This document shows positions 178-20,276 of a stretch of 32,000 nucleotides of DNA, piece by piece; the stretch's first letter is position 1; every line of letters begins with the position of its first letter. The notes under the pieces are model-generated. The model ran no database searches. It was not told the origin of the DNA and worked only from the letters and a program-made list of their open reading frames with translations. Origin of the DNA: Candidatus Hodarchaeota archaeon (GTDB lineage Archaea; Asgardarchaeota; Heimdallarchaeia; Hodarchaeales; Hodarchaeaceae); contig JBHLKC010000011.1 of NCBI GenBank assembly GCA_048887065.1, positions 1 to 32,000 of the forward strand, given 5' to 3'. The translations under genes were made by a program, and so were the position numbers.

Positions 178-698
178 GATTCCTATTGCATCAAGAAGAA
201 CATAATGTTTCTGTTGCCATAGATAAAGTTTCGAACCACTTTTGTGCATCACATGCTTTGATCTCTAATAGGTATTGTGAAGGCATACACGGACACAATT
301 ATTTAGTTGATGTGAAAATCGAGGGAAATAAAGATCCTGAAGAGATACTTATCGATTTCATTTTTCTAGATAACCTTCTTAAAGAAATTACATCCAAGTT
401 CGATCATTACGTACTCATTCCATCTCAAAATAACTTGTTAAAAATCACCAGAAGTTCGGGTAATCTAGAATTGAGATATGGAGATCGCTTTTATTCAATT
501 CCCGAAAATGAAATCAAGTTATTAGAGTGTGCAAATATTACTGCTGAAACATTGGCTAGACTTTTAGGGGAAGAACTTTACAAACGCCTAAAAGGAGAAG
601 AATTTTGGAATAGAATTAATCAAATTAGACTCAGTGTCTGGGAAACAGAGTTCTATAAGGCTACTTATACCATTTTTCCCAATGATTCAAGAATTTAG
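174..698 (+). CDS. 6-pyruvoyl-tetrahydropterin synthase / QueD-like (PTPS family)
   Basis: 174-aa [31 protein letters not shown] matches the PTPS/QueD Cys...H.HGHNY zinc/catalytic signature. The TTG start overlaps the trxB stop (TTGA at 174-177). It sits next to an MptE-like gene. Confidence 0.65.
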
Positions 699-1473
699 GA
701 AATTTAATTCTTGGAAAGGTTGAAATCTCCTGTCCTTGGAATGTGAGATTAAAGCGAAGCCCTTTATATCGAGAGGGTAATGAATTAATTAAATCTAAAG
801 CAATTTCGAGCTTCTGCAGTTTTCTTTCTGTTGATTTCTCCTTATGTGAATATTGAGTACTATATTTTCCAATCGTGGTACCAAAATCAAATCCAACTAA
901 TCCTATTAAAGGGCATTGGAAATGAAGAGCTAAAAAAATAGCTCTATCTCCATCCGAAAACCCCCCAAAGTTAAAAAGAATTTGGTTTGGACTGCATTGA
1001 GTTGTTCCCCATACAGCACATTCTTTGAGGATTTCTTCATTCTTTTTAAGAAAGTGTGAAACAATGTCTTTATTATCACCATGGGCATGAATCAATGTTA
1101 AAACACCGTTCTTAATCGCCCATTCGATTGCTTTTAAATCCCCATCAAGATCAGTAACTACAAGGGTAGGAATAAGTTTTCTTTGTTGAAATAATTTAGT
1201 TGCACCATCAACTGCAATTAAAGATCCTTTTATGATAATATCGGTAGAAATCAAATTAAGTAAATCTTTTTCCAAAGAAGGCCCTGCCCCAGCAATAATT
1301 ACTGGTTGTCGAAGAACTGATTTCAATTTATAAAGAATTTGTGTCCTTTTATCTGGAGAACATTCCACAAAAAAGGTTTTCAGCAACTTTGTTGATTCTT
1401 TATCAGCTTTAACATTAAGACCTAGCTTATCAACGATCTTATAATATTGTTTTTGCCATTCTAGCCAATCCAT
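661..1473 (-). CDS. MptE-like 6-hydroxymethylpterin diphosphokinase (DUF115 family)
   Basis: 270-aa ORF with IIAGAGPSL (Rossmann-like), VVTDLDGD and HAHGDN motifs, as I recall them for the DUF115/MptE family. It is convergent with the PTPS-like gene, which is consistent with archaeal pterin (folate/methanopterin) biosynthesis. Confidence 0.55.
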   Translation of the reverse strand: MDWLEWQKQYYKIVDKLGLNVKADKESTKLLKTFFVECSPDKRTQILYKLKSVLRQPVIIAGAGPSLEKDLLNLISTDIIIKGSLIAVDGATKLFQQRKLIPTLVVTDLDGDLKAIEWAIKNGVLTLIHAHGDNKDIVSHFLKKNEEILKECAVWGTTQCSPNQILFNFGGFSDGDRAIFLALHFQCPLIGLVGFDFGTTIGKYSTQYSHKEKSTERKLQKLEIALDLINSLPSRYKGLRFNLTFQGQEISTFPRIKFPKFLNHWEKWYK

Positions 1474-1567
1474 TGACTCATCACATTTGAAAAAGATTCC
1501 AGGATTTGTTACGTGGTTCTGATTAGCATTAGACCAATTAATGGATTATTTACTTCAGCCTAACAAT

Positions 1568-1577
1568 AAATATAAAA
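1568..1577 (+). promoter_or_regulatory. possible TATA box for the 5S rRNA transcription unit
   Basis: AAATATAAAA lies about 70 nt upstream of the leader strand of the 5S processing helix. No other support. Confidence 0.25.
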
Positions 1578-1648
1578 GGACTCTTAACTTAGCTTCTATT
1601 GGTTTAAAATCTCATCAACGATTTAGTATCTGTTACATTAGCATGTGA

Positions 1649-1789
1649 GATTCTGCTGGAAGTTAAGTTAGGCTCCGTTCTGATCTGTACTGTTGTGCTC
1701 GCGCCAACGGGAAAATCGGAAAGCTGAGTATTGCTCGGCCAAAGGGCCTGAGTTACACCTGGTCTCATTCCGAACCCAGAAACAGGATC
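1649..1789 (+). other. bulge-helix-bulge (BHB) processing motif formed by the 5S leader and trailer
   Basis: Leader GATTCTG (1649-1655) pairs with trailer CAGGATC (1783-1789) over 7 bp. The central 4-bp helix is CTGG (1656-1659) with CCAG (1776-1779). The 3-nt bulges are AAG (1660-1662) and AAA (1780-1782), on opposite strands and each 3' of its helix strand. The inner pairs are TT (1663-1664) with AA (1773-1774). This is the 3-4-3 geometry recognised by the archaeal splicing endonuclease. Confidence 0.65.
1662..1781 (+). rRNA. rrf: 5S rRNA, circularly permuted gene (3' half - cap loop - 5' half)
   Basis: 1755-1779 ACACCTGGTCTCATTCCGAACCCAG closely matches the archaeal 5S helix III/loop C consensus ACACCCGGUCUCAUUUCGAACCCGG. 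Its expected continuation AAGUUAAG plus the rest of the molecule (AAGTTAAGTTAGGCTCCGTTCTGATCTGTACTG...GGGAAAATCGG, helix II return, loop E, helices IV/V) lies upstream at 1660-1719. Helix II is GGGCCTGA (1744-1751) with TTAGGCTC (1668-1675). Helix IV/V is CTGAT (1680-1684) with ATCGG (1715-1719). The helix I strands GCTGAG (1723-1728) and CTCGGC (1734-1739) are joined by the 5-nt loop TATTG. It is a GC-rich island in an ORF-free gap. Confidence 0.8.
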
Positions 1790-2113
1790 CCCTTGCTTTT
1801 AACATAATGAGATTTTAGCTATCTTAATTCCTTTTTTAAACTTTTTAAACTATTCGTTTTTACAAAAAATTATCTCTCTCTTTTTTTGGGTTACAAATCA
1901 ACTTCATAATGCATTTAATTCGGGGGATTATTGTTATAATAATCATAATCCTTGGTACATAATTAGTCAAAAAAATACTAATCACTCCGTAATGCTGATT
2001 CCTAGTATAGGGTGCACTTTTACACTTGCAACAGAAGATCTATCACTTTCAAATTATGAGAAGTTTATATCAGCATTTAAATTGTCATTTATCTTTACTC
2101 AAGGAGACATTAT

Positions 2114-5331: not shown

Positions 5332-5405
5332 TGGGCCGGAACGGATTTGAACCATCGTCCTCCAGTGTGTGAGACTGGCGTCATACCGAGCTAGACCACC
5401 GGCCC
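5332..5405 (-). tRNA. tRNA-Val (anticodon CAC)
   Basis: The reverse complement is GGGCCGG TG GTCTAGCTCGGTATGAC G CCAGT CTCACAC ACTGG AGGAC GATGG TTCAAAT CCGTT CCGGCCC A. This is a complete cloverleaf of 74 nt with no intron and no encoded CCA. Confidence 0.9.
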
Positions 5406-8057: not shown

Positions 8058-8489
8058 TTGGTAAAAAAATCCGTGGTGATTAATAAAATTGCCTATCGTC
8101 ACATAACAGATTTACTTTTGGAAAAATCTGACATTGAGCTTGTAAGCCTTGGGTTTGGATTTTTTAATGAGTCCCAGATTTTGATAACGAATTTTGTGCG
8201 TATGCGAAACTTAGATGAGTCTCCTATCAGTTTTTCATTAGATTATGAAGAAATGTATAAAGAAATTCAGAATCACGAGAAAGAAGGGAAGTCTTTAATC
8301 GGTTTCTTTCATAGCCATCCACATGATTCTAGATTATACCCTTCACAAAAAGATATTCATTTTATGAGGAATTGGCCTTATCCATACTTATGGCTACTCG
8401 GAAGTAGTAATTCTAAACCTAATCTAATGATTTATGCCTTAGTAGACGAAAAAATTCAAAGAATCGATTTTTCAGTAAAAGAATTTTGA
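8058..8489 (+). CDS. JAB1/MPN/Mov34 (JAMM) metalloprotease
   Basis: 143-aa ORF. GFFHSHPHDSRLYPSQKDIHFM fits the JAMM motif HxHx7Sx2D, with upstream Glu residues. An AGGGGA SD-like element lies 10 nt before the TTG start. Confidence 0.75.
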   Translation: MVKKSVVINKIAYRHITDLLLEKSDIELVSLGFGFFNESQILITNFVRMRNLDESPISFSLDYEEMYKEIQNHEKEGKSLIGFFHSHPHDSRLYPSQKDIHFMRNWPYPYLWLLGSSNSKPNLMIYALVDEKIQRIDFSVKEF

Positions 8490-12258: not shown

Positions 12259-14493
12259 GTGAGGATGCTGTTAATGCAACCCATTGAACTTCGTCTGCAA
12301 GTTAAAGAAGCGAATTATCACGATGTAGGTCGGGGTATTGGTAGAATTTCCAAGAAAAATATGAAGAAACTTGGAGTCTTATCTGGAGACGTCCTCGAAA
12401 TTAAGGGTTCAACGGGAAAAAAAACGACAGTAATAGTTTGGGCTACTTATAGCATTGATGAGAATAAAGATATTATCTCAATAGATGCAACCTCAAGAAT
12501 GAATGCAGGTGTCCACTTAGATGAATTGGTTGTTGTGCAAAAAATAGAGGTTTTACCAGCAAAAAAGATTGTACTGGCACCCACAACCGAATATATTTTA
12601 GGAGACGCGAAAAAATTCTTTCATATGGGATTACAAGGAAGAGCTGTATCAATTCATGACACTATTCGCTTAGAATATATGGGACAACGAATTGAATATA
12701 AAGTTGTAAATCTAACTCCCAAGAATGATTCTGTTGTTATTGATGAAAATACTGTCGTTGATGCAATGACAACTGTATCTCCTTCAGATAAAACCTTGGT
12801 TGAAATGAAGCTGATTCCGAGGATTTCGTACGAAGACATTGGGGGAATGGATGAAACTATTCAGAGAGTAAGGGAGATGGTTGAACTCCCTATGCGATAT
12901 CCTGAATTGTTCGAACGTTTAGGGGTAGAACCACCAAAAGGTGTGCTTCTTTATGGTCCACCTGGCACTGGTAAAACATTATTAGCAAAAGCGGTTGCGA
13001 GTGAAACTGATTCACACTTCATTAATGTGTCAGGCCCCGAAATAATGTCCAAATTTTATGGTGAAAGTGAACAAAATATTCGTGAGATATTTGATGAGGC
13101 AAAAGAGAAGGCTCCAAGTATAATCTTTATTGATGAGATCGATAGTATAGCTTCAAAGCGTGATGATGCAAATTCTGGAGAAGTTGAACGAAGAATTGTT
13201 TCACAAATGTTAGCATTAATGGATGGATTGGAGAGTCGTGGCGAAATAATCGTTATTGGAGCGACAAATCGTCCAAATGCTATTGATCCTGCTTTGAGAA
13301 GACCTGGACGCTTTGATCGAGAGATTGAGATTGAAGTGCCCAACCAAAAAGGCAGATTAGTCATTCTTGAAATTCACACACGATCTATGCCCCTTGCGGA
13401 AGATATTGACTTAAAAAACATTGCCATGCGTACTCATGGATTTGTAGGTGCAGATTTAGCTTCTCTCACAAAGGAAGCCGCCATGAGAGCAATTAGAAGA
13501 GTATTTCCCAAAATTGTTTGGGGTGAAAGTATTCCTTCAGAAATAATTGATCAAATATCGGTATTATCAGCAGATTTCGATGTTGCTATTACAGATGTGC
13601 AGCCCAGCGCACTTAGGGAAGTTATTATTGATGTTCCTACAGTTTCTTGGGATGAGGTGGGTGGATTAGACGAAATCAAACATGAATTAAAAGAAATTAT
13701 AGAATGGCCATCAAAATACCCATCAATTTTTAATTATATGGATGCTGAAATTCCTCGGGGTGTTCTACTAATTGGTCCTCCTGGAACTGGTAAAACATTA
13801 CTAGTTCGTGCCTTGGCAAGTGAAACCTTGTATAATTTCATTTATGTAAAAGGCTCAGAAGTTCATTCAAAATGGGTTGGTGAAAGCGAAAAAGCAATTC
13901 AAGAAACGTTCCGTAAAGCCCGCATGGGTTCTCCCTGCATTGTATTTTTCGATGAAATTGACACTTTGGTTCCCTCACGAAAAGGGTTTATCTCTGATAC
14001 TGGAGCAACAGACCGAATTATTACTACTTTTTTAACTGAAATGGATGGCTTGGAAGAATTGAGTGATGTAATCGTTATTGCAGCGTCGAATCGTCCTGAT
14101 GTTATCGACCCTGCCCTCTTAAGACCTGGCCGATTTGAAAGAATAATAGAATTACCATTACCAGACGAAAAAGCCAGAGAAGAGATATTAAAGGTTCATA
14201 CAAGAGACAAACCATTATCCCATAAAATTTCATTATCCGATGTCGCTAAAAAGACTGATGGATTCAGTGGAGCTGATATTAAAGGCCTAATAAATCGAGC
14301 GACGTTCTATTCAATTAATCGTTTTCTTCAAGAACATCAAGAAAAGCTGAATAATAATGATCCTTCAAAAATTAATGAGCTGATTAAAGATTTGAGACCT
14401 GAAATCAAATTATCTGATATAATAGAATCATTAAATTATTTTCAAACTTCATCAAAAAAAGATCCACATTCAGAAATATCGTACAAGATGTAA
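12259..14493 (+). CDS. cdc48: Cdc48/VAT-type AAA+ ATPase (two AAA domains)
   Basis: The N-domain is [17 protein letters not shown]. It has two Walker A motifs (both [10 protein letters not shown]), Walker B motifs IIFIDEID and IVFFDEID, and GATNRP / AASNRP with PGRFDR / PGRFER. The probable true start is ATG 12274 (MQPIELRL), 9 nt after GAGG. Confidence 0.9.
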
Positions 14494-14522: not shown

Positions 14523-15320
14523 GTGTATTTTGATAAACTGAGTGAAGAAATTGATGATCTGCTTGAAAAAGCAGAGGATAAAAATAATATAAAATTTATT
14601 GGAGAGGATGATCATTTTCCTCACGAAGGAGAGGTAGTGATCGAGATGCTCGGTTTTTATGGGTCAGTTAATCAAATTATTACAAAAGAAGTTCAGAAAA
14701 TAGCTCAAAAGAAGAAAAAAATAGCTGGGATCTTCTCAAGTTACTTTAGTGAAATGGTTCAAATCATATCTGGAGAGATTTTACTGCCAATTACGATTCA
14801 TCAGGTTCAAATTGGGTCTAAACCTTTTATCTTAACAACAAGTAATTTCTCAGTCCCTGACATAATTGGATACCAATTAGCGGAAGAATTATTCAAGTTT
14901 TATAAAAGACAAAAAGTGTCAAAAATTCTTTTGATAGATGGAGTGTACAATAATGAACGAAATATCAATAAAAAACCACAGATTCACAAAATTTTCTCCT
15001 CAGATTTACAAATAAATGTCATAAATAATGATGTGGCTGATTTCACTTTGATAGGTCAGAGTGCATGTTCTTTTTTGACTTATTGGGGCTATAGGGAGGA
15101 TATCCCGATTGAAATTTTGGTTGTTGACTCTTTTTCAGAATATGATCCTATGTCTTCTCTTGAGCTATTAAAGAATTTAATGCGAGAATGGGGAATTAAA
15201 GGGGATTTAAGTGATTTGGAAAAAAAATCAAAAGAATTTAAACTATCATATACGCAATCAGAAAATGAATCAGAAGTAGAAAGACAGGAAAAGAATTCTG
15301 ATAAACGATTCTTTATCTAG
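14523..15320 (+). CDS. possible PAC2-family (proteasome assembly chaperone-like) protein
   Basis: 265-aa ORF. VVIEMLGFYGSVNQIITKEV and KILLIDGVYN resemble the IEGLPGIGLVG... and IIVTGD... segments of archaeal PAC2/PbaA proteins, from memory. It has an acidic tail ending in the HbYX-like FFI. It lies immediately downstream of cdc48. The similarity is weak. Confidence 0.35.
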   Translation: MYFDKLSEEIDDLLEKAEDKNNIKFIGEDDHFPHEGEVVIEMLGFYGSVNQIITKEVQKIAQKKKKIAGIFSSYFSEMVQIISGEILLPITIHQVQIGSKPFILTTSNFSVPDIIGYQLAEELFKFYKRQKVSKILLIDGVYNNERNINKKPQIHKIFSSDLQINVINNDVADFTLIGQSACSFLTYWGYREDIPIEILVVDSFSEYDPMSSLELLKNLMREWGIKGDLSDLEKKSKEFKLSYTQSENESEVERQEKNSDKRFFI

Positions 15321-16233: not shown

Positions 16234-18186
16234 TTGGAGGCAGTTCGAGGAGGGGGGATAATCTTTATCCTCGGGCAAGATAAACCTGACTGGCTTTATT
16301 CTATCAATGAGAACCGTTTTCCCAATATGTTACTAGAATCAAAAAAAAGGAAGTCAATATTATTAAATTGGTTTTTGAATAATATTAATGATAATCCTCA
16401 GTGTATTTCAAATACAAAGTCAATTTCAGATGTAATTTCAAGATTCCATCCAATCCCCTTAGAAAATAGCTTAAAAGCTCAGATAGATAGTATTTTTGTA
16501 AGTGAAGAGCAGAAAGATGTGATTGATAAGCTTCTAGTTGAATTAAGCAATTTGTCATATACAAATAGTTGTTTAATTTTGGTAGCTAATCGTGGTAGAG
16601 GAAAATCTGCAACAGTTGGCTTAATGTTATCCCAGTTTATTATGCGGAATCCATCTCATAAATTTAAAATAATTGTCACTGCCCCCTATTTAACAAATGT
16701 ACAAACAATTTTCGAGTTTATTTCAAAAGGTTTTAATTCTAAGAATATTAAATGTCAGTTCGTTAAGAAGAATGGGTTTATAACCGGGGTTCATACTTCT
16801 ACAAAAGCAATATTAAAATTTATACCTCCAAGTGAATTAAATAAACGCTTAAAGACCGATATTATTGTAGTTGATGAAGCTGCTTCACTTCCTTTAGATT
16901 TATTGAGACAAATTCTTCGAACCAAAACAAAAAAAATTTTCATATCAACAATCCATGGATATGAAGGAGCAGGAAGAGGATTTGAATATAAAATTCTTAA
17001 TTATCTAGAAAATCAGAAGCAAATTCATTACAAAAAATTCACCTTACATCAGCCTATCAGATATTTTCAAGGTGATTTGATCGAAAAACTATTAAACGAC
17101 ATTTTTTTTCTCAATGTTGAACCTGAACCATCAGAACTAAAAATTCAAGAAATTAGACGGGATTTTATTACTCTAGAAGAGTTTAAAGATCCAGGTTTCT
17201 TATTCTCGAGAAGAGGATCACCTTATCTTAAGCAATTGTTTGCGATTCTTGTCTACGCTCATTATCGAAATCAACCCAATGACCTCGTACTATTAGCAGA
17301 CTCAGGAAAACATTTCTTGGTTGGACTATATGAAAAAAAGAATGATAACGGAGGAAAATTACTAGTTTCAAGCCAACTAGCACAGGAAGGGAGAATGTCC
17401 GATCAAGAAATCTTAGACGTTGCTTCTGGTCGTTTTATTGAGGGTAATCTTATCCCTTCAGTAGCTATCCGTCATTTTTCAAAGGATTTTGCTAAGTTAA
17501 ATGGTTTAAGAATTGTTAGGATAGCGTCTCATCCGAGTCTAATTGATAAAGGTCTTGGTAGACAAGCGATAGAATTACAAATCAAAAGATACTCTTCATA
17601 CGATTGGATTGGAGTAAGTTTTGGTACAACAGTTAAACTAATCAAATTTTGGACAAAGTTCGGTTTCAAATCTGTCCATATTCGTCCTATAAAGACCCCT
17701 GAAACTGGTGAATGGAATATAGTAGTAATCTTCCCTTTTTCTCCTTCTGCTACTAGAATCATTAATGAAGCATCTTCTGATTTTTTATTACAATTCATTT
17801 CTTTACTCAAACAATCATTACATTCGATGAAACCAGAGTTAGTTTCACATATCATAAGAAGTTGCGTTCCAATTCCTAATTACGAGGTAAAAATTACTGC
17901 AAGTGGAAAATATCGCCTTAAAAATTATTTAAAAGGGAATCTTAACTTCCTATTAGCTGTTGATGTAATGTATGAGCTTGTAATGAAGTATTTCGTTTCC
18001 CATGCCTTCAATGTAAAACTAAGTCCTTCTCAGGAAGTGTTGATTATTGCTCGTATTTTGCAAGGAAGAACATGGGGACAAACATTAGGTAAAACAGGAT
18101 TAAATTGGAAAACAGCAAATGGCTTGATTAAGAAAGCCATTGAAAAACTGACTATAATGTTTATAGAAAAGGATAACGATTTTTAA
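16234..18186 (+). CDS. tmcA: tRNA/rRNA cytidine N4-acetyltransferase, TmcA/NAT10 family (canonical-start ORF; coding region extends upstream to about 15901)
   Basis: Helicase-like Walker A ANRGRGKSA, Walker B IIVVDEAASLP, HGYEGAGRGF, and GNAT core RIVRIASHPSLIDKGLGRQA. The upstream in-frame sequence (15901-16233) encodes the family's N-terminal domain (...QRSLFLFQD...VDFIFIDLRQVFNPN...VRGGGIIFIL) but contains no ATG, GTG or TTG. Confidence 0.85.
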   Translation: MEAVRGGGIIFILGQDKPDWLYSINENRFPNMLLESKKRKSILLNWFLNNINDNPQCISNTKSISDVISRFHPIPLENSLKAQIDSIFVSEEQKDVIDKLLVELSNLSYTNSCLILVANRGRGKSATVGLMLSQFIMRNPSHKFKIIVTAPYLTNVQTIFEFISKGFNSKNIKCQFVKKNGFITGVHTSTKAILKFIPPSELNKRLKTDIIVVDEAASLPLDLLRQILRTKTKKIFISTIHGYEGAGRGFEYKILNYLENQKQIHYKKFTLHQPIRYFQGDLIEKLLNDIFFLNVEPEPSELKIQEIRRDFITLEEFKDPGFLFSRRGSPYLKQLFAILVYAHYRNQPNDLVLLADSGKHFLVGLYEKKNDNGGKLLVSSQLAQEGRMSDQEILDVASGRFIEGNLIPSVAIRHFSKDFAKLNGLRIVRIASHPSLIDKGLGRQAIELQIKRYSSYDWIGVSFGTTVKLIKFWTKFGFKSVHIRPIKTPETGEWNIVVIFPFSPSATRIINEASSDFLLQFISLLKQSLHSMKPELVSHIIRSCVPIPNYEVKITASGKYRLKNYLKGNLNFLLAVDVMYELVMKYFVSHAFNVKLSPSQEVLIIARILQGRTWGQTLGKTGLNWKTANGLIKKAIEKLTIMFIEKDNDF

Positions 18187-18863: not shown

Positions 18864-20276
18864 ATGACACTGGAAATAATAGTTGTAGTATCGAGAAAAA
18901 ATACCAATTTAATAAGATTAAAACCTTTGAATTATTCTGAACTTTTAGTCTGGTCTAAGCCACATAAGATGATAGTGATGAATGGAGACACAACTATCTT
19001 AATCATCATATTTATAGTTATTATAATTGTCATAGCTCTTGCTACACGGAAATCTTCAGCTAAAAATGTCAAACGAGCTTATGAATTAGAACAACAGGGA
19101 CAATACCTTGATGCACTTGATCTTTATGCTCGGCGCTCTCTTGAAGAAGCAGCTAATCTGGTTTTACGTACTCCTGAAGCTTCACAAATCTTAGCATTAC
19201 GTAGGTTAGAAAAAAGGTACCCCCTTCAAAAAATTGAAAAGACTTTTATCAACTTAGCTCGATTAAATATAATGAAAAATGATCCTCGTGCAGCTGCAAA
19301 TGCTTTTGTACTTGCCAAAAAACCTTTTGCTGCTGCAAAAGTCTTTATTGATGCTGGAGGGTTAGATTTTGTGCCTGCAGCAATTCAGATTCTTGACAGA
19401 AATGCCTCACTTATTCATAATCGGAATCAGGCTATTAGAAACTTGGCAAGACATGCTTTTAATAATCAGAATTATATGGAATCTGCTGAACTATTGAAAA
19501 CAATAGGAGCAGAAGAAGAGGCAAACACAGTTTTGATTGCAGCAGCAACAGAATTGAAGAAACAAGGTTTTTCTGAAGCAGCTAAGGAATATTTAACTAC
19601 AGCTGGAAATCCAGCTACTGCTGTCAAACATTATTTGAAAGAGTTGAACGATCACCTTCCTGATGGCAATATTGAAAAAATACGGCGGTCTCTCACCATC
19701 GCAAAAGAAATTATCGAGAAATTGCCACCTGATGAGAAGAAAAGTTTTGAAAAGGAAAATTCCACTCAAATTAATGAAATAGCAGAATATGATCGTCTTC
19801 TGAAAATTCTAGATTCAGCACGAGATATCCTAAGGAAAAAACACACCTATCAAGCTATTGCTCTTTATGATGAGCTATTAGATAGTTTAGGGAAAAAAAC
19901 ACCTGCAACAATATTGGCAGAAGCAGCCTTAGCAAATGAGGTACAAAATCCTCATTATGCATCAAAGCTATATCGTTTAGCTGCACAACGAGTAAAATCA
20001 TCTCGGGCGTCTGAGTCTTTCAGAATGCGAGCTGAAAACTTAGTAACTTCATCTGGGGAGCACACTGTAAGTACTGTTAAACCTATCTCAGAAATAATTG
20101 AAGAGGTAGAAGAATATTGTACTGTATGTCGTATGAACGTTTCTGATCCAAAAACTTTAGTACGTTGTCCTGAATGTGGGTCTCCTGCTCATTATTCCCA
20201 TCTTGCAGAATGGTTAAAGATCCGAGGTGTTTGCCCAATTTGCAAGAAAAAGGTTAAGATTACAAAACCAGCATAA
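18864..20276 (+). CDS. membrane-anchored helical-repeat protein with C-terminal RING-type zinc finger
   Basis: One TM helix (ILIIIFIVIIIVIALA; the real start is probably ATG 18969 or 18978). It has an Ala-rich helical (TPR-like) middle. The C-terminus is CTVC-x12-CPEC-x4-H-x2-H-LAEWL-x5-CPIC (20118-20243), an eight-ligand cross-brace pattern with the RING-H2-like H..H...WL.....CP.C signature. Confidence 0.6.
   Translation: MTLEIIVVVSRKNTNLIRLKPLNYSELLVWSKPHKMIVMNGDTTILIIIFIVIIIVIALATRKSSAKNVKRAYELEQQGQYLDALDLYARRSLEEAANLVLRTPEASQILALRRLEKRYPLQKIEKTFINLARLNIMKNDPRAAANAFVLAKKPFAAAKVFIDAGGLDFVPAAIQILDRNASLIHNRNQAIRNLARHAFNNQNYMESAELLKTIGAEEEANTVLIAAATELKKQGFSEAAKEYLTTAGNPATAVKHYLKELNDHLPDGNIEKIRRSLTIAKEIIEKLPPDEKKSFEKENSTQINEIAEYDRLLKILDSARDILRKKHTYQAIALYDELLDSLGKKTPATILAEAALANEVQNPHYASKLYRLAAQRVKSSRASESFRMRAENLVTSSGEHTVSTVKPISEIIEEVEEYCTVCRMNVSDPKTLVRCPECGSPAHYSHLAEWLKIRGVCPICKKKVKITKPA

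What the first reader, a model, noticed from the sequence alone, without database searches (positions are those of the whole stretch)
1649..1789. Circularly permuted 5S rRNA gene flanked by a canonical BHB motif that would circularise it and restore the native loop C junction
Seen directly: the two halves of a clearly recognisable archaeal 5S rRNA are in reversed order. The segment that normally ends the first half (ACACCTGGTCTCATTCCGAACCCAG, 1755-1779) lies downstream of the segment that should follow it (AAGTTAAGTTAGGCTC... through loop E GTACTG...GGGAAA, 1660-1719). The natural 5' and 3' ends (helix I strands GCTGAG at 1723-1728 and CTCGGC at 1734-1739) are covalently joined by a 5-nt cap, TATTG. 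All other helices still pair: helix II at 1744-1751 with 1668-1675, helix III CTGG at 1759-1762 with CCAG at 1776-1779, and helix IV/V at 1680-1684 with 1715-1719. The flanks form an outer helix (1649-1655 with 1783-1789), a 4-bp helix (1656-1659 with 1776-1779) and two 3-nt bulges (1660-1662 and 1780-1782). This is the 3-4-3 BHB substrate of the archaeal tRNA-splicing endonuclease. Cleaving between bulge nucleotides 2 and 3, as in tRNA introns, then ligating releases a 120-nt RNA (1662-1781). Its new junction reads CCAGAA|GTTAAG, which matches the canonical CCCGGAAGUUAAG. The leader CTGG mimics the internal helix III strand, so the processing helix and the mature helix are mutually exclusive. 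Inference: the mature 5S is made through a circular intermediate. It may stay circular or be re-opened at the helix I cap. BHB-dependent circular pre-16S/23S and permuted tRNA genes are established, but I do not know of a described permuted 5S rRNA gene in archaea. Standard 5S covariance models would miss or fragment this locus.
Basis: partly seen in the sequence, partly recalled or inferred. Interest (0 to 1): 0.92.

Follow-up and report, generated by a model that had tools for sequence, protein, structure and literature searches.

The report
Circularly permuted 5S rRNA gene
In this Asgard (Hodarchaeales-type) archaeon the 5S ribosomal RNA gene has its two halves in swapped order, flanked by a splicing-type processing stem that would cut and re-join the transcript into a 120-nt circle. 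This would explain why 5S genes have been reported "missing" from genomes of the closest known archaeal relatives of eukaryotes.

Summary
Rfam finds only two sub-threshold 5S fragments in reversed order. I built a covariance model from nine unrelated colinear 5S rRNAs, permuted in silico at GAA|GUUAAG. It hits window 1662-1781 full length at 56.8 bits (E 9e-13). The same sequences in natural order give at most 22 bits.

The permuted gene is not an artefact. It recurs in about 55 fetched loci (38 distinct sequences), all from Heimdallarchaeia-type MAGs or metagenome contigs, including three chromosome-level records. The breakpoint is always the same, and all five 5S helices show compensatory changes, including the hairpin-closed helix I.

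The flanks form a leader-trailer stem. The outer helix covaries in 5 of 9 pairs. The leader 4-mer is always the complement, not a copy, of the helix III 3' strand. Cutting at standard BHB positions restores the canonical CCAGAA|GUUAAG junction.

The 3' half of the motif is canonical. The 5' half is relaxed: there is no inner helix, and the central helix has only 3 bp in many relatives. The helix I caps are short, variable and sometimes UNCG-like, so the product probably stays circular.

No RNA data were available. I found no paper describing this. Interest is high.

The parts
1567..1587 (+). Putative archaeal promoter: TATA-like box (ATATAAAA, 1570-1577) plus a conserved downstream GGACTCTTAA. 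It lies about 70 nt upstream of the processing stem and implies an independent transcription unit starting near 1600.
   Evidence: The motif AAATAT(A/T)TAAAG(R)CTCTTGAA is conserved at the same distance in 20+ clade-A loci. The promoter function and the start site are inferred, not shown.
1605..1615 (+). Distal leader strand (TAAAATCTCAT) of an extended leader-trailer stem. It pairs with 1807-1817.
   Evidence: RNAduplex of leader against trailer gives -16.7 kcal/mol, versus -9.2 for shuffled trailers (z -2.9). Equivalent but different pairings occur in L002, L039, L054, L064 and L066. It is lineage-variable and only moderately supported.
1649..1655 (+). Outer helix h, 5' strand (GATTCTG). It pairs with 1783-1789.
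   Evidence: Sequence. On 18 clade-A sequences, 5 of 9 pairs change on both sides and 90.7% of cells are paired. It is part of the RNAfold MFE.
1656..1659 (+). Central helix H, 5' strand (leader CTGG). It pairs with CCAG at 1776-1779 and so competes with the mature helix III 5' strand (1759-1762).
   Evidence: Pair 2 shows CG:13, UG:3, UA:2. The leader is the complement, not a copy, of the helix III 3' strand in all three clades: CUGG/CCAG, CCGG/CCGG, CAGG/CCUG and CCAG/CUGG.
1660..1662 (+). 5' unpaired run AAG. The predicted EndA cut is between A1661 and G1662.
   Evidence: The geometry follows the established BHB rule (cut after the 2nd bulge nucleotide). The in-silico permuted model starts at 1662. 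The inner closing helix is absent. The cut site is inferred.
1662..1728 (+). The 3' two-thirds of the 5S rRNA: loop B 3' side, helix II 3' strand, helices IV and V, loop E (GTACTG...GGGAA) and the helix I 3' strand.
   Evidence: Matches Rfam model positions ~49-120 and R1 model positions 1-~75. Helices are 90-100% paired, with compensatory changes.
1729..1733 (+). Cap (TATTG) that covalently joins the natural 3' and 5' ends of helix I. It may act as a 3-nt loop, AUU, closed by U1729-G1733.
   Evidence: Sequence. The helix I hairpin is 97.8-100% paired and 3-4 of its pairs show compensatory changes. Loop sequence and length vary: UAUUG, GGUUC, AAUUA, and UGCG/UACG in clade B.
1734..1781 (+). 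The 5' third of the 5S rRNA: helix I 5' strand, loop A, helix II 5' strand, helix III and loop C (TCTCATTCCGAAC), ending in CCAGAA.
   Evidence: Rfam 1757-1781 = model 27-51. nhmmer native hit covers hmm 7-51 and ends at 1781. The R1 full-length hit ends at 1781.
1776..1779 (+). CCAG: the 3' strand of mature helix III. In the precursor it is also the 3' strand of the central helix H.
   Evidence: The BHB conformer is the MFE at -52.7 kcal/mol, against -50.7 when helix III is forced.
1780..1782 (+). 3' bulge AAA, a canonical 3-nt bulge between H and h. The predicted EndA cut is between A1781 and A1782.
   Evidence: The AAA run is invariant in the 18 aligned clade-A sequences. It is a 3-nt bulge in the MFE. 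The cut site is inferred.
1783..1789 (+). Outer helix h, 3' strand (CAGGATC).
   Evidence: covariation; MFE.
1807..1817 (+). Distal trailer strand (ATGAGATTTTA). It pairs with 1605-1615.
1662..1781 (+). The predicted excised and ligated product: a 120-nt circular 5S rRNA with the new junction A1781-G1662 (…CCGAACCCAGAA|GUUAAGUUAGG…).
   Evidence: R1 hit at exactly these bounds. The circular fold gives the 5S three-way junction at -37.7 kcal/mol. Its existence as RNA has not been tested.

Best explanation
Window 1662-1781 is the functional 5S rRNA gene of this Hodarchaeales-type Asgard archaeon, encoded in circularly permuted order.

The gene order is: loop B, helix II 3' strand, helices IV/V, helix I 3' strand, a 5-nt cap, helix I 5' strand, helix II 5' strand, helix III/loop C.

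Proposed mechanism:
1. The gene is transcribed on its own from an upstream TATA-type promoter, as a ~200-nt precursor.
2. The leader and trailer pair into a processing stem.
3. Inside that stem the leader CUGG displaces the helix III 5' strand and pairs with CCAG. This gives a bulge-helix-bulge-like motif: a 7-9-bp helix, a 3-nt AAA bulge, a 4-bp helix, then an AA(G) unpaired run.
4. The tRNA-splicing endonuclease EndA cuts after A1661 and after A1781. In Asgards EndA is the broad-specificity (alpha-beta)2 type.
5. RtcB joins the 2',3'-cyclic phosphate of A1781 to the 5'-OH of G1662. This recreates the universal CCAGAA-GUUAAG loop-B junction.
6. Once the leader is gone, helix III forms and the RNA adopts the normal 5S fold.

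Helix I is a closed, covarying hairpin with a short, non-conserved loop. For that reason the mature molecule most likely stays a covalently closed 120-nt circle.

Shown: the permuted gene, its conservation, the fold, the stem and its covariation.
Inferred: transcription start, the enzymes, the cut sites, ligation and the circular end state.
For: Permutation:
- Rfam gives half-hits in reversed order.
- The in-silico-permuted covariance model R1 gives 56.8 bits (E 9e-13) over 1662-1781. The colinear model R2 gives 22.2 and 7.9 bits.
- nhmmer extends through the junction only after re-permutation.

Functionality and conservation:
- The same gene sits in the same synteny (DRMBL-like gene / 5S / MptE) in six relatives whose MptE protein is 87-53% identical.
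- About 55 fetched loci (38 distinct sequences) carry the same breakpoint, all from Heimdallarchaeia-labelled MAGs or metagenome contigs.
- R1 scores 44.6-62.2 bits on every Heimdall-type locus searched.
- In the permuted topology 94.6% of cells are paired, and 18 of 27 pairs change on both sides across 34 distinct sequences.
- The element is 52% GC in a 34% GC neighbourhood.

Processing stem:
- The outer helix has 5 of 9 covarying pairs.
- The leader 4-mer is complementary to the helix III 3' strand in three clades that have different helix III sequences.
- The BHB conformer is the MFE of the precursor.
- Standard cut positions give exactly the canonical junction and a 120-nt product.
- Asgard EndA, including that of Heimdall AB_125, is (alpha-beta)2 with the L1 loop that confers relaxed-BHB specificity (PMC5829648).

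No colinear copy:
- None in the window and none in the fetched flanks (up to ~7 kb) of the Heimdall-type loci searched.
- The colinear junction sequence has 0 hits in the metagenome collection.
- The authors of closed Heimdallarchaeum genomes could not predict any 5S (PMC8813620).

Closed helix I is tolerated: E. coli ribosomes work with the native 5S ends joined by a tetraloop (PMC7283268).
Against: - No RNA evidence of any kind was available here. That includes junction reads, termini and abundance.
- The 5' half of the motif is not canonical. There is no inner helix h', and in the MFE the 5' site lies in a multiloop.
- In 14 of 25 distinct clade-A sequences the leader reads CCGA, so the central helix has 3 bp.
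- In clade B a 31-nt hairpin insertion separates the outer helix from the 5S start, and there are two competing central helices.
- RNAalifold on clade A prefers an alternative pairing of the leader with the palindromic CCGG of the helix III 5' strand.
- I could not scan the whole genomes for a divergent colinear 5S.
- One preprint states that a 5S gene is present in a Ca. Hodarchaeum MAG, with no method given.
Confidence: 0.65

Rival explanations
1. Permuted gene with a permuted linear product. Leader and trailer are removed, by EndA or other nucleases acting on the processing stem, but the ends are not ligated. The ribosome then uses a 5S with a closed helix I and a nick in loop B.
For: Mitochondrial 5S rRNAs of brown algae are permuted in the final product without any ligation (PMC4267664). 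The 5' half of the BHB is weak, and the central helix is 3 bp in many relatives. Nothing in the DNA can prove ligation.
Against: From established knowledge, archaeal BHB-excised RNAs (tRNA introns, pre-16S, pre-23S) are circularised by RtcB by default. The cut positions implied by the motif recreate the universal junction to the nucleotide. Selection would not need that precision if the ends stayed free. The break lies in the conserved loop B / helix II-III hinge.
Confidence: 0.15
2. The circle is only an intermediate, as with permuted tRNA genes. A second endonucleolytic step opens the helix I cap and yields a conventional linear 5S with native ends.
For: In the permuted tRNA genes of Cyanidioschyzon and Thermofilum, the circle is re-opened at the native ends. 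This is from my own knowledge and is also cited in PMC4267664. Circular pre-16S/23S are usually re-linearised (PMC10515664).
Against: The cap is only 3-7 nt and is not conserved in sequence or length. In clade B it is a UNCG-type tetraloop (UGCG, UACG) on a covarying stem. That looks like a structural loop, not a processing site. No tRNA-like or A/U-rich processing motif is present there. Helix I is shortened to 6-7 bp. Mature circular 23S has precedent (PMC12918454).
Confidence: 0.12
3. A non-functional relic or assembly artefact, such as a chimera of tandem 5S copies or a pseudogene. The real colinear 5S would lie elsewhere in the genome.
For: Whole genomes could not be scanned here. One preprint reports a 5S gene in a Ca. 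Hodarchaeum MAG. Tandem 5S copies do mimic the search pattern in bacteria and in an Altiarchaeales scaffold.
Against: The same architecture occurs in 38 distinct sequences from independent assemblies, including three chromosome-level records. Every helix shows compensatory substitutions and no decay. The promoter and processing stem are conserved. The flanks are not 5S. The colinear junction has 0 hits in the metagenome collection. 5S could not be predicted in closed Heimdallarchaeum genomes. HMM-based rRNA finders would report the permuted gene as a partial 5S, which may explain the preprint's statement.
Confidence: 0.03

Closest known systems
Circularly permuted tRNA genes (Cyanidioschyzon merolae; Thermofilum pendens), expressed through a BHB/BHL-processed circular intermediate
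   Same: The 3' half of the RNA is encoded upstream of the 5' half. The native ends are joined by a short linker. Leader and trailer form a splicing-endonuclease motif, and cutting plus ligating it restores an internal junction.
   Different: The molecule here is 5S rRNA, not tRNA. tRNA circles are re-opened by RNase P and tRNase Z at the native ends, and no such site is evident here. The central helix here is made by a leader that mimics an internal helix strand (helix III).
Archaeal BHB-dependent circular pre-16S/pre-23S rRNA, circular mature 23S (PMC12918454) and the permuted 23S of Pyrococcus/Thermococcus (PMC7758197)
   Same: A leader-trailer processing stem contains a BHB. EndA plus RtcB chemistry applies. 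A covalently closed rRNA can be the form used in the ribosome.
   Different: Those genes are colinear, so ligation joins the native ends, and any permutation arises after transcription. Here the gene itself is permuted and ligation repairs an internal loop. The literature states that 5S is not processed this way (PMC12918454).
Permuted mitochondrial 5S rRNA of brown algae and other stramenopiles (Rfam mtPerm-5S; PMC4267664)
   Same: It is a 5S rRNA whose helix I is a closed hairpin and whose termini lie elsewhere in the molecule.
   Different: It is organellar. The termini lie at the alpha/gamma three-way junction, not in loop B. There is no BHB, no ligation, and the product stays permuted and linear. 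No mtPerm-5S hit was obtained for this locus at E<=10.
Engineered cp5S rRNA in E. coli (PMC7283268)
   Same: The native 5S ends are closed by a tetraloop, and the resulting ribosomes are functional.
   Different: It is artificial. It is opened in loop C or D and fused into 23S rRNA.
Heterogeneous circular 5S species in Sulfolobus and Halobacterium (Danan 2012; PMC12558985)
   Same: They are circular RNA molecules derived from 5S.
   Different: They come from colinear genes, have variable junctions and no BHB, and have been proposed to be degradation intermediates.

Membership tests
5S rRNA (Rfam RF00001) | Colinear match to the covariance model at or above the 38-bit gathering score | tested here: not met
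   The gathering scan of the window finds no 5S. The best local hits are 20.1 and 11.8 bits. Seven Heimdall loci also give no hit.
5S rRNA (Rfam RF00001) | Five helices I-V around a three-way junction, with the conserved loop C (CCGAAC), GAAGUUAAG and loop E (GUACUG...GGGAA) motifs | tested here: met
   All motifs are present. After in-silico permutation of the model the hit is full length at 56.8 bits. The circular and re-permuted folds give the 5S shape. 94.6% of cells are paired and 18 of 27 pairs covary.
Strict archaeal BHB motif (hBHBh') | Central helix of 4 bp | tested here: inconclusive
   The window has 4 Watson-Crick pairs (CUGG/CCAG). 11 of 25 distinct clade-A sequences have 4 pairs and 14 of 25 have 3 pairs (leader CCGA).
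Strict archaeal BHB motif (hBHBh') | Two 3-nt bulges on opposite strands, staggered by the central helix | tested here: inconclusive
   The 3' bulge AAA (1780-1782) is exact, and its AAA is invariant in the 18 aligned clade-A sequences. The 5' run is AAG or AA and opens into a multiloop.
Strict archaeal BHB motif (hBHBh') | Outer helix h closing the 3' bulge | tested here: met
   A 7-9 bp helix in which 5 of 9 pairs show changes on both sides and 90.7% of cells are paired.
Strict archaeal BHB motif (hBHBh') | Inner helix h' closing the 5' bulge | tested here: not met
   Only GUU/AAC or UU/AA pairing from invariant 5S motifs is possible, and it is not in the MFE. The motif is therefore of the relaxed hBH type.
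Strict archaeal BHB motif (hBHBh') | Cleavage by EndA and ligation by RtcB | not testable with these tools
   No RNA or enzyme data. Asgard EndA is reported to be the broad-specificity (alpha-beta)2 + L1 type (PMC5829648).
Circularly permuted RNA gene matured through a circular RNA | The 3' part is encoded upstream of the 5' part, with the native termini joined by a short linker | tested here: met
Circularly permuted RNA gene matured through a circular RNA | Leader and trailer pair so that the new termini are brought together in an endonuclease motif | tested here: met
Circularly permuted RNA gene matured through a circular RNA | Detectable circular RNA or junction reads | not testable with these tools
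mtPerm-5S (permuted mitochondrial 5S) | Match to the Rfam mtPerm-5S model, with termini at the alpha/gamma junction | tested here: not met
   The Rfam E<=10 scan of 1600-1850 lists RF00001 only. The breakpoint here is in loop B.

The most novel reading that the evidence does not exclude
The mature 5S rRNA in the ribosomes of Hodarchaeales, AB_125-type and other Heimdallarchaeia is a covalently closed circle made from a permuted gene. That would be the first permuted rRNA gene in a cellular (non-organellar) genome and the first naturally circular 5S. All three clades share the same breakpoint (after helix III + AA, before GUUAAG), so the permutation probably arose once. Tandem duplication of a 5S with a palindromic CCGG helix III is a plausible route, since it would create the central BHB helix automatically. 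The permutation would then be a rare genomic change marking part of Heimdallarchaeia. Eukaryotes have colinear 5S genes, so mapping this character would bear on where eukaryotes branch relative to Hodarchaeales.
Probability: 0.5. Interest if true: 0.93.

Novelty: new variant of a known kind. Interest (0 to 1): 0.88.

Why it matters
1. It would solve a standing annotation gap. Closed Heimdallarchaeum genomes were published with the remark that 5S rRNA genes 'could not be predicted' (PMC8813620). Rfam, and pipelines that rely on it, miss or fragment this gene, which also affects MIMAG 'high-quality' calls for Asgard MAGs.
2. It extends BHB/EndA/RtcB-mediated RNA rearrangement from tRNAs and 16S/23S to 5S rRNA. 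Current reviews and papers say 5S does not circularise.
3. It predicts a ribosome whose 5S is a closed circle. That can be tested in the newly available Hodarchaeales cultures and in existing metatranscriptomes.
4. The shared breakpoint is a discrete, easily scored character in the archaeal lineage closest to eukaryotes. It is therefore useful as a rare genomic change for the debated topology of Heimdallarchaeia and eukaryotes.
5. It shows a simple evolutionary route to a permuted gene: tandem duplication across a palindromic helix strand.

Tried and rejected
- An exact-sequence look-up of the window's MptE protein found nothing. I used homologues instead.
- The Rfam gathering scan gives no 5S. 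This is informative but not a test of the permutation, and the Rfam tool cannot take a rearranged sequence. I therefore built mirrored covariance models from canonical 5S genes harvested from bacterial and Altiarchaeales loci.
- RNAalifold on clade A pairs the leader CCG with the helix III 5' strand. I reject this as an artefact of the CCGG palindrome. In the window it would need two G-U pairs. In clades B and C the leader can pair only with the 3' strand.
- My first reading of a local leader hairpin (GGTTTGTAATCTC...CAAAC) was partly replaced by long-range leader-trailer pairing. That distal stem is lineage-variable (mean z only -1.6), so I do not rely on it.
- Folding the single clade-C locus (L031) gave no clear outer helix.
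- The 17 bacterial hits and the Altiarchaeales hit of the genome scan, plus 2 bacterial hits of the metagenome scan, are colinear 5S genes followed by a second copy or by a chance TTCCGAAC. They are not permuted genes.
- Nine literature searches found no description of a permuted or BHB-processed 5S in archaea. The library lacks most subscription-journal papers, so prior description cannot be fully excluded.
- I found no EndA or RtcB gene in the window.
Full report
OBSERVATION. The window is a ~33% GC archaeal segment. Its MptE-like protein (661-1473, minus strand) is 100% identical to an NCBI 'Candidatus Hodarchaeota archaeon' protein, and its next relatives are Hodarchaeales/Heimdallarchaeota MAGs. 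Every coordinate and string in the finding is correct.

Rfam's 5S model does not reach its gathering score anywhere in the 32 kb. A permissive scan of 1600-1850 gives two hits. The first is 1757-1781, aligned to model positions 27-51 (20.1 bits). The second is a forced 'global' hit at 1628-1729 (11.8 bits), whose real match is model ~49-120 at 1660-1729. So the two parts of a 5S rRNA are present, adjacent and in reversed order.

FORMAL TEST OF THE PERMUTATION. The Rfam tool cannot score a rearranged sequence, so I mirrored the test.
- A genome-collection scan incidentally returned colinear 5S genes from bacteria and one Altiarchaeales MAG. Rfam confirmed them at 62-110 bits.
- I took nine of them and made two alignments. 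In one, each was cut in silico at GAA|GUUAAG and its native ends were closed with GAAA. In the other they were left in natural order. I built a covariance model from each (R1 and R2).
- The permuted model R1 hits window 1662-1781 full length at 56.8 bits (E 9e-13). The next best hit in the window is 11.7 bits.
- The colinear model R2 gives only 22.2 bits (1731-1822, 5' part only) and 7.9 bits (1628-1729). It finds no colinear 5S elsewhere in the window.
- A profile HMM of 11 colinear 5S sequences aligns the re-joined sequence (1734-1781 + 1662-1728) contiguously across the junction at 37.8 bits. On the native sequence the alignment stops exactly at 1781, at 22.7 bits.
- RNAfold folds both the re-permuted linear RNA and the 120-nt circle into the classical 5S three-way junction.

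IT IS A CONSERVED, FUNCTIONAL GENE. Six relatives whose MptE protein is 87-53% identical carry the same element in the same intergenic position, between a DRMBL-type metallo-beta-lactamase gene and MptE.

A scan of one genome per GTDB species used a pattern that demands the permuted order (AAGTTAAG...GTACTG...TTCCGAAC). It returned 44 loci.
- 26 are permuted genes. All are from MAGs labelled Heimdallarchaeota, Hodarchaeota or Promethearchaeota, plus one labelled Hermodarchaeota and two 'uncultured archaeon' records. They include the chromosome-level records CP070665, CP070695 and CP070760, as well as AB_125 and B3_Heim.
- The other 18 hits are colinear 5S genes followed by a second copy or by a chance motif.

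A metagenome scan added 13 more permuted genes. With the six synteny loci and the window itself, that makes about 55 fetched loci and 38 distinct sequences.

Three sequence clades share one breakpoint. These are clade A (Hodarchaeales-like, including the window), clade B (AB_125-like) and clade C (a single MAG).
- R1 scores 44.6-62.2 bits on every Heimdall-type locus searched. R2 never exceeds ~30 bits on them.
- On 34 distinct sequences aligned to the permuted topology, 94.6% of cells pair, against at most 55% when partners are slid. 18 of 27 pairs change on both sides. All four helix III pairs and four of eight pairs of the hairpin-closed helix I are among them. This alignment is fitted to the model, which biases it towards the structure.
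- An unfitted MAFFT alignment of 18 clade-A sequences gives the same picture.

This rules out a pseudogene or an assembly chimera.

THE FLANKS. In clade A the leader GA(K)WYUG pairs with the trailer CARNRUC.
- Of nine possible pairs, five show changes on both sides (for example U-A to C-G, and U-G to A-U), and 90.7% of cells pair.
- Immediately inside this helix, the leader 4-mer pairs with the 3' strand of helix III.
- The leader is always the complement of that strand, never a copy of it. The combinations are CUGG/CCAG (window, L001), CUGG/CCGG with a G-U pair (L002, L003, L041), CCGG/CCGG (six loci), CAGG or CGGG/CCUG (clade B) and CCAG/CUGG (clade C).
- This pairing competes with the mature helix III. 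A processing role is the simplest reason for it to be conserved.
- For 1640-1800 the RNAfold minimum-free-energy structure is exactly this conformer (-52.7 kcal/mol), with AAA 1780-1782 as a clean 3-nt bulge. Forcing helix III costs 2 kcal/mol.
- Applying the established BHB rule (cut after the second bulge nucleotide on each strand) releases 1662-1781. Ligation then gives CCAGAA|GUUAAG, which is the universal 5S junction (compare the Rfam consensus).
- Further leader-trailer pairing exists beyond the outer helix (window 1605-1615 with 1807-1817, z -2.9), but it varies between lineages.
- A TATA-like box with a conserved downstream motif lies ~70 nt upstream in 20+ loci. This suggests an independent transcription unit.

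The motif is not a strict hBHBh'.
- The 5' unpaired run has no inner closing helix. In the MFE, A1660-A1661 are unpaired and G1662-U1663 pair with A1755-C1756 (normal 5S pairs), so the 5' site lies in a multiloop.
- In 14 of 25 distinct clade-A sequences the leader reads CCGA, which leaves a 3-bp central helix and an AAA run.
- In clade B a 31-nt insertion with an 8-bp hairpin separates the 10-bp outer helix from the 5S start, and two alternative central helices exist.
- These are 'relaxed' motifs. Published work reports that Asgard archaea, including Heimdall AB_125, have the (alpha-beta)2 EndA with the L1 loop that confers relaxed-BHB specificity (PMC5829648). So the enzyme expected in these organisms is of the right kind.

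END STATE. Helix I is only 6-7 bp.
- Its cap is 3-7 nt and is not conserved in sequence or length: UAUUG, GGUUC, UUU and AAUUA in clade A, and UGCG, UACG and UAAG in clade B.
- The stem beneath it covaries.
- UNCG-type loops and the absence of any conserved motif argue for a permanent hairpin, not a re-opening site.
- E. coli ribosomes tolerate a tetraloop joining the native 5S ends (PMC7283268).
- Mature circular 23S has recently been reported in archaea (PMC12918454).

I therefore favour a circular mature 5S (about 0.65). The alternatives are an unligated permuted linear RNA (0.15) and re-opening at the cap (0.12).

IS THERE A NORMAL 5S ELSEWHERE? I could not scan whole genomes. The indirect evidence is as follows.
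- None was found in the window, or in the fetched flanks (up to ~7 kb) of the Heimdall-type loci searched.
- The colinear junction CCGAACCCRGAAGTTAAGTYAGG has zero matches in the metagenome collection, which does contain at least 8 clade-A permuted genes.
- A preprint lists a 5S gene for a Ca. Hodarchaeum MAG without giving a method. HMM-based finders would report the permuted gene as a partial 5S.

COMPARISON WITH WHAT IS KNOWN.
- Mechanistically it works like the permuted tRNA genes of Cyanidioschyzon and Thermofilum, and like BHB-dependent circularisation of archaeal pre-16S/23S.
- It differs from both. The RNA is 5S, the gene itself is permuted, ligation repairs an internal loop, and the circle probably persists.
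- Permuted mitochondrial 5S of brown algae (PMC4267664) is a different permutation with no ligation.
- Circular 5S species in Sulfolobus and Halobacterium are heterogeneous by-products of colinear genes.
- Recent papers state that 5S, unlike 16S/23S, is not circularised.
- Nine full-text searches found no description of this gene.

VERDICT. The RNA-level steps (cutting, ligation, circular end state) remain inferred.

It is a new variant of a known kind of system. It has high specialist interest for three reasons. It would explain the 'missing' 5S of Heimdallarchaeia. It predicts a circular 5S in the ribosome. It supplies a discrete rare genomic character in the lineage nearest to eukaryotes.

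Noticed in passing
L010, L011, L014, L017, L040, L042, L043, L048, L053, L056, L057, L059, L061 (clade B; e.g. L010 3463-3659, minus strand): AB_125-type Heimdall MAGs carry a 31-nt insertion between the 10-bp outer helix (CCUAGUAAGG/CCUUACUAGG) and the 5S start. It contains an 8-bp covarying hairpin. A duplicated-looking motif (U/G)CAGAAAG...CAGGAAAG offers two alternative central helices. If the outer one is used, the circle would keep a ~40-nt extra hairpin in loop B.
   Followed up: partly
window 1600-1646 and 1793-1822: The conserved leader motif TGGTTTGWAATCTC can fold locally or pair with a trailer motif (GAGATWCAAAC). In the window, 1605-1615 pairs with 1807-1817. Other sub-lineages use a GCGCC/GGCGC helix instead.
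   Followed up: partly
L025 (3-118) and L049 (3050-3165): The Hodarchaeota MAG YT1_021 has the permuted 5S at the very start of one contig and at the very end of another. This suggests either two copies that break the assembly or one gene split across contigs.
   Followed up: no
L033 2041-2283: An Altiarchaeales scaffold holds two colinear 5S copies separated only by a run of N. This is probably a scaffolding artefact or a tandem repeat, and it mimicked the permuted search pattern.
   Followed up: partly
L065 764-1077, L067 8070-8366, L009 5191-5496, L015 7117-7469: Several bacterial contigs carry tightly spaced tandem or partial 5S copies, which a permuted-order model also hits. Any genome-wide screen for permuted 5S must filter these out.
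   Followed up: partly
L038 (JBHLKY010000008.1): A MAG labelled 'Candidatus Hermodarchaeota' carries a typical clade-A (Hodarchaeales-like) permuted 5S with the same leader and trailer. Either the label or the binning deserves a check.
   Followed up: no
window 8058-8489, 12259-14493, 14523-15320, 16234-18186, 18864-20276: The neighbourhood encodes several eukaryote-like proteins: a JAB/MPN protease, Cdc48, a PAC2 proteasome-assembly chaperone, a NAT10/TmcA-type RNA cytidine acetyltransferase and a RING-finger protein (Pfam).
   Followed up: no
window 5332-5405 (minus strand): tRNA-Val(CAC), at 62.3 bits, is the only Rfam gathering-level hit in the window. It is apparently intron-less and colinear.
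   Followed up: no
L060 1576-1695 (minus strand): This is a divergent clade-A member. Its helix III is CCGU/ACGG and its helix II is altered (GGAAAC.../...GTACC). It is useful for covariation and shows that the 4th central-helix position (leader A) does not track helix III.
   Followed up: partly
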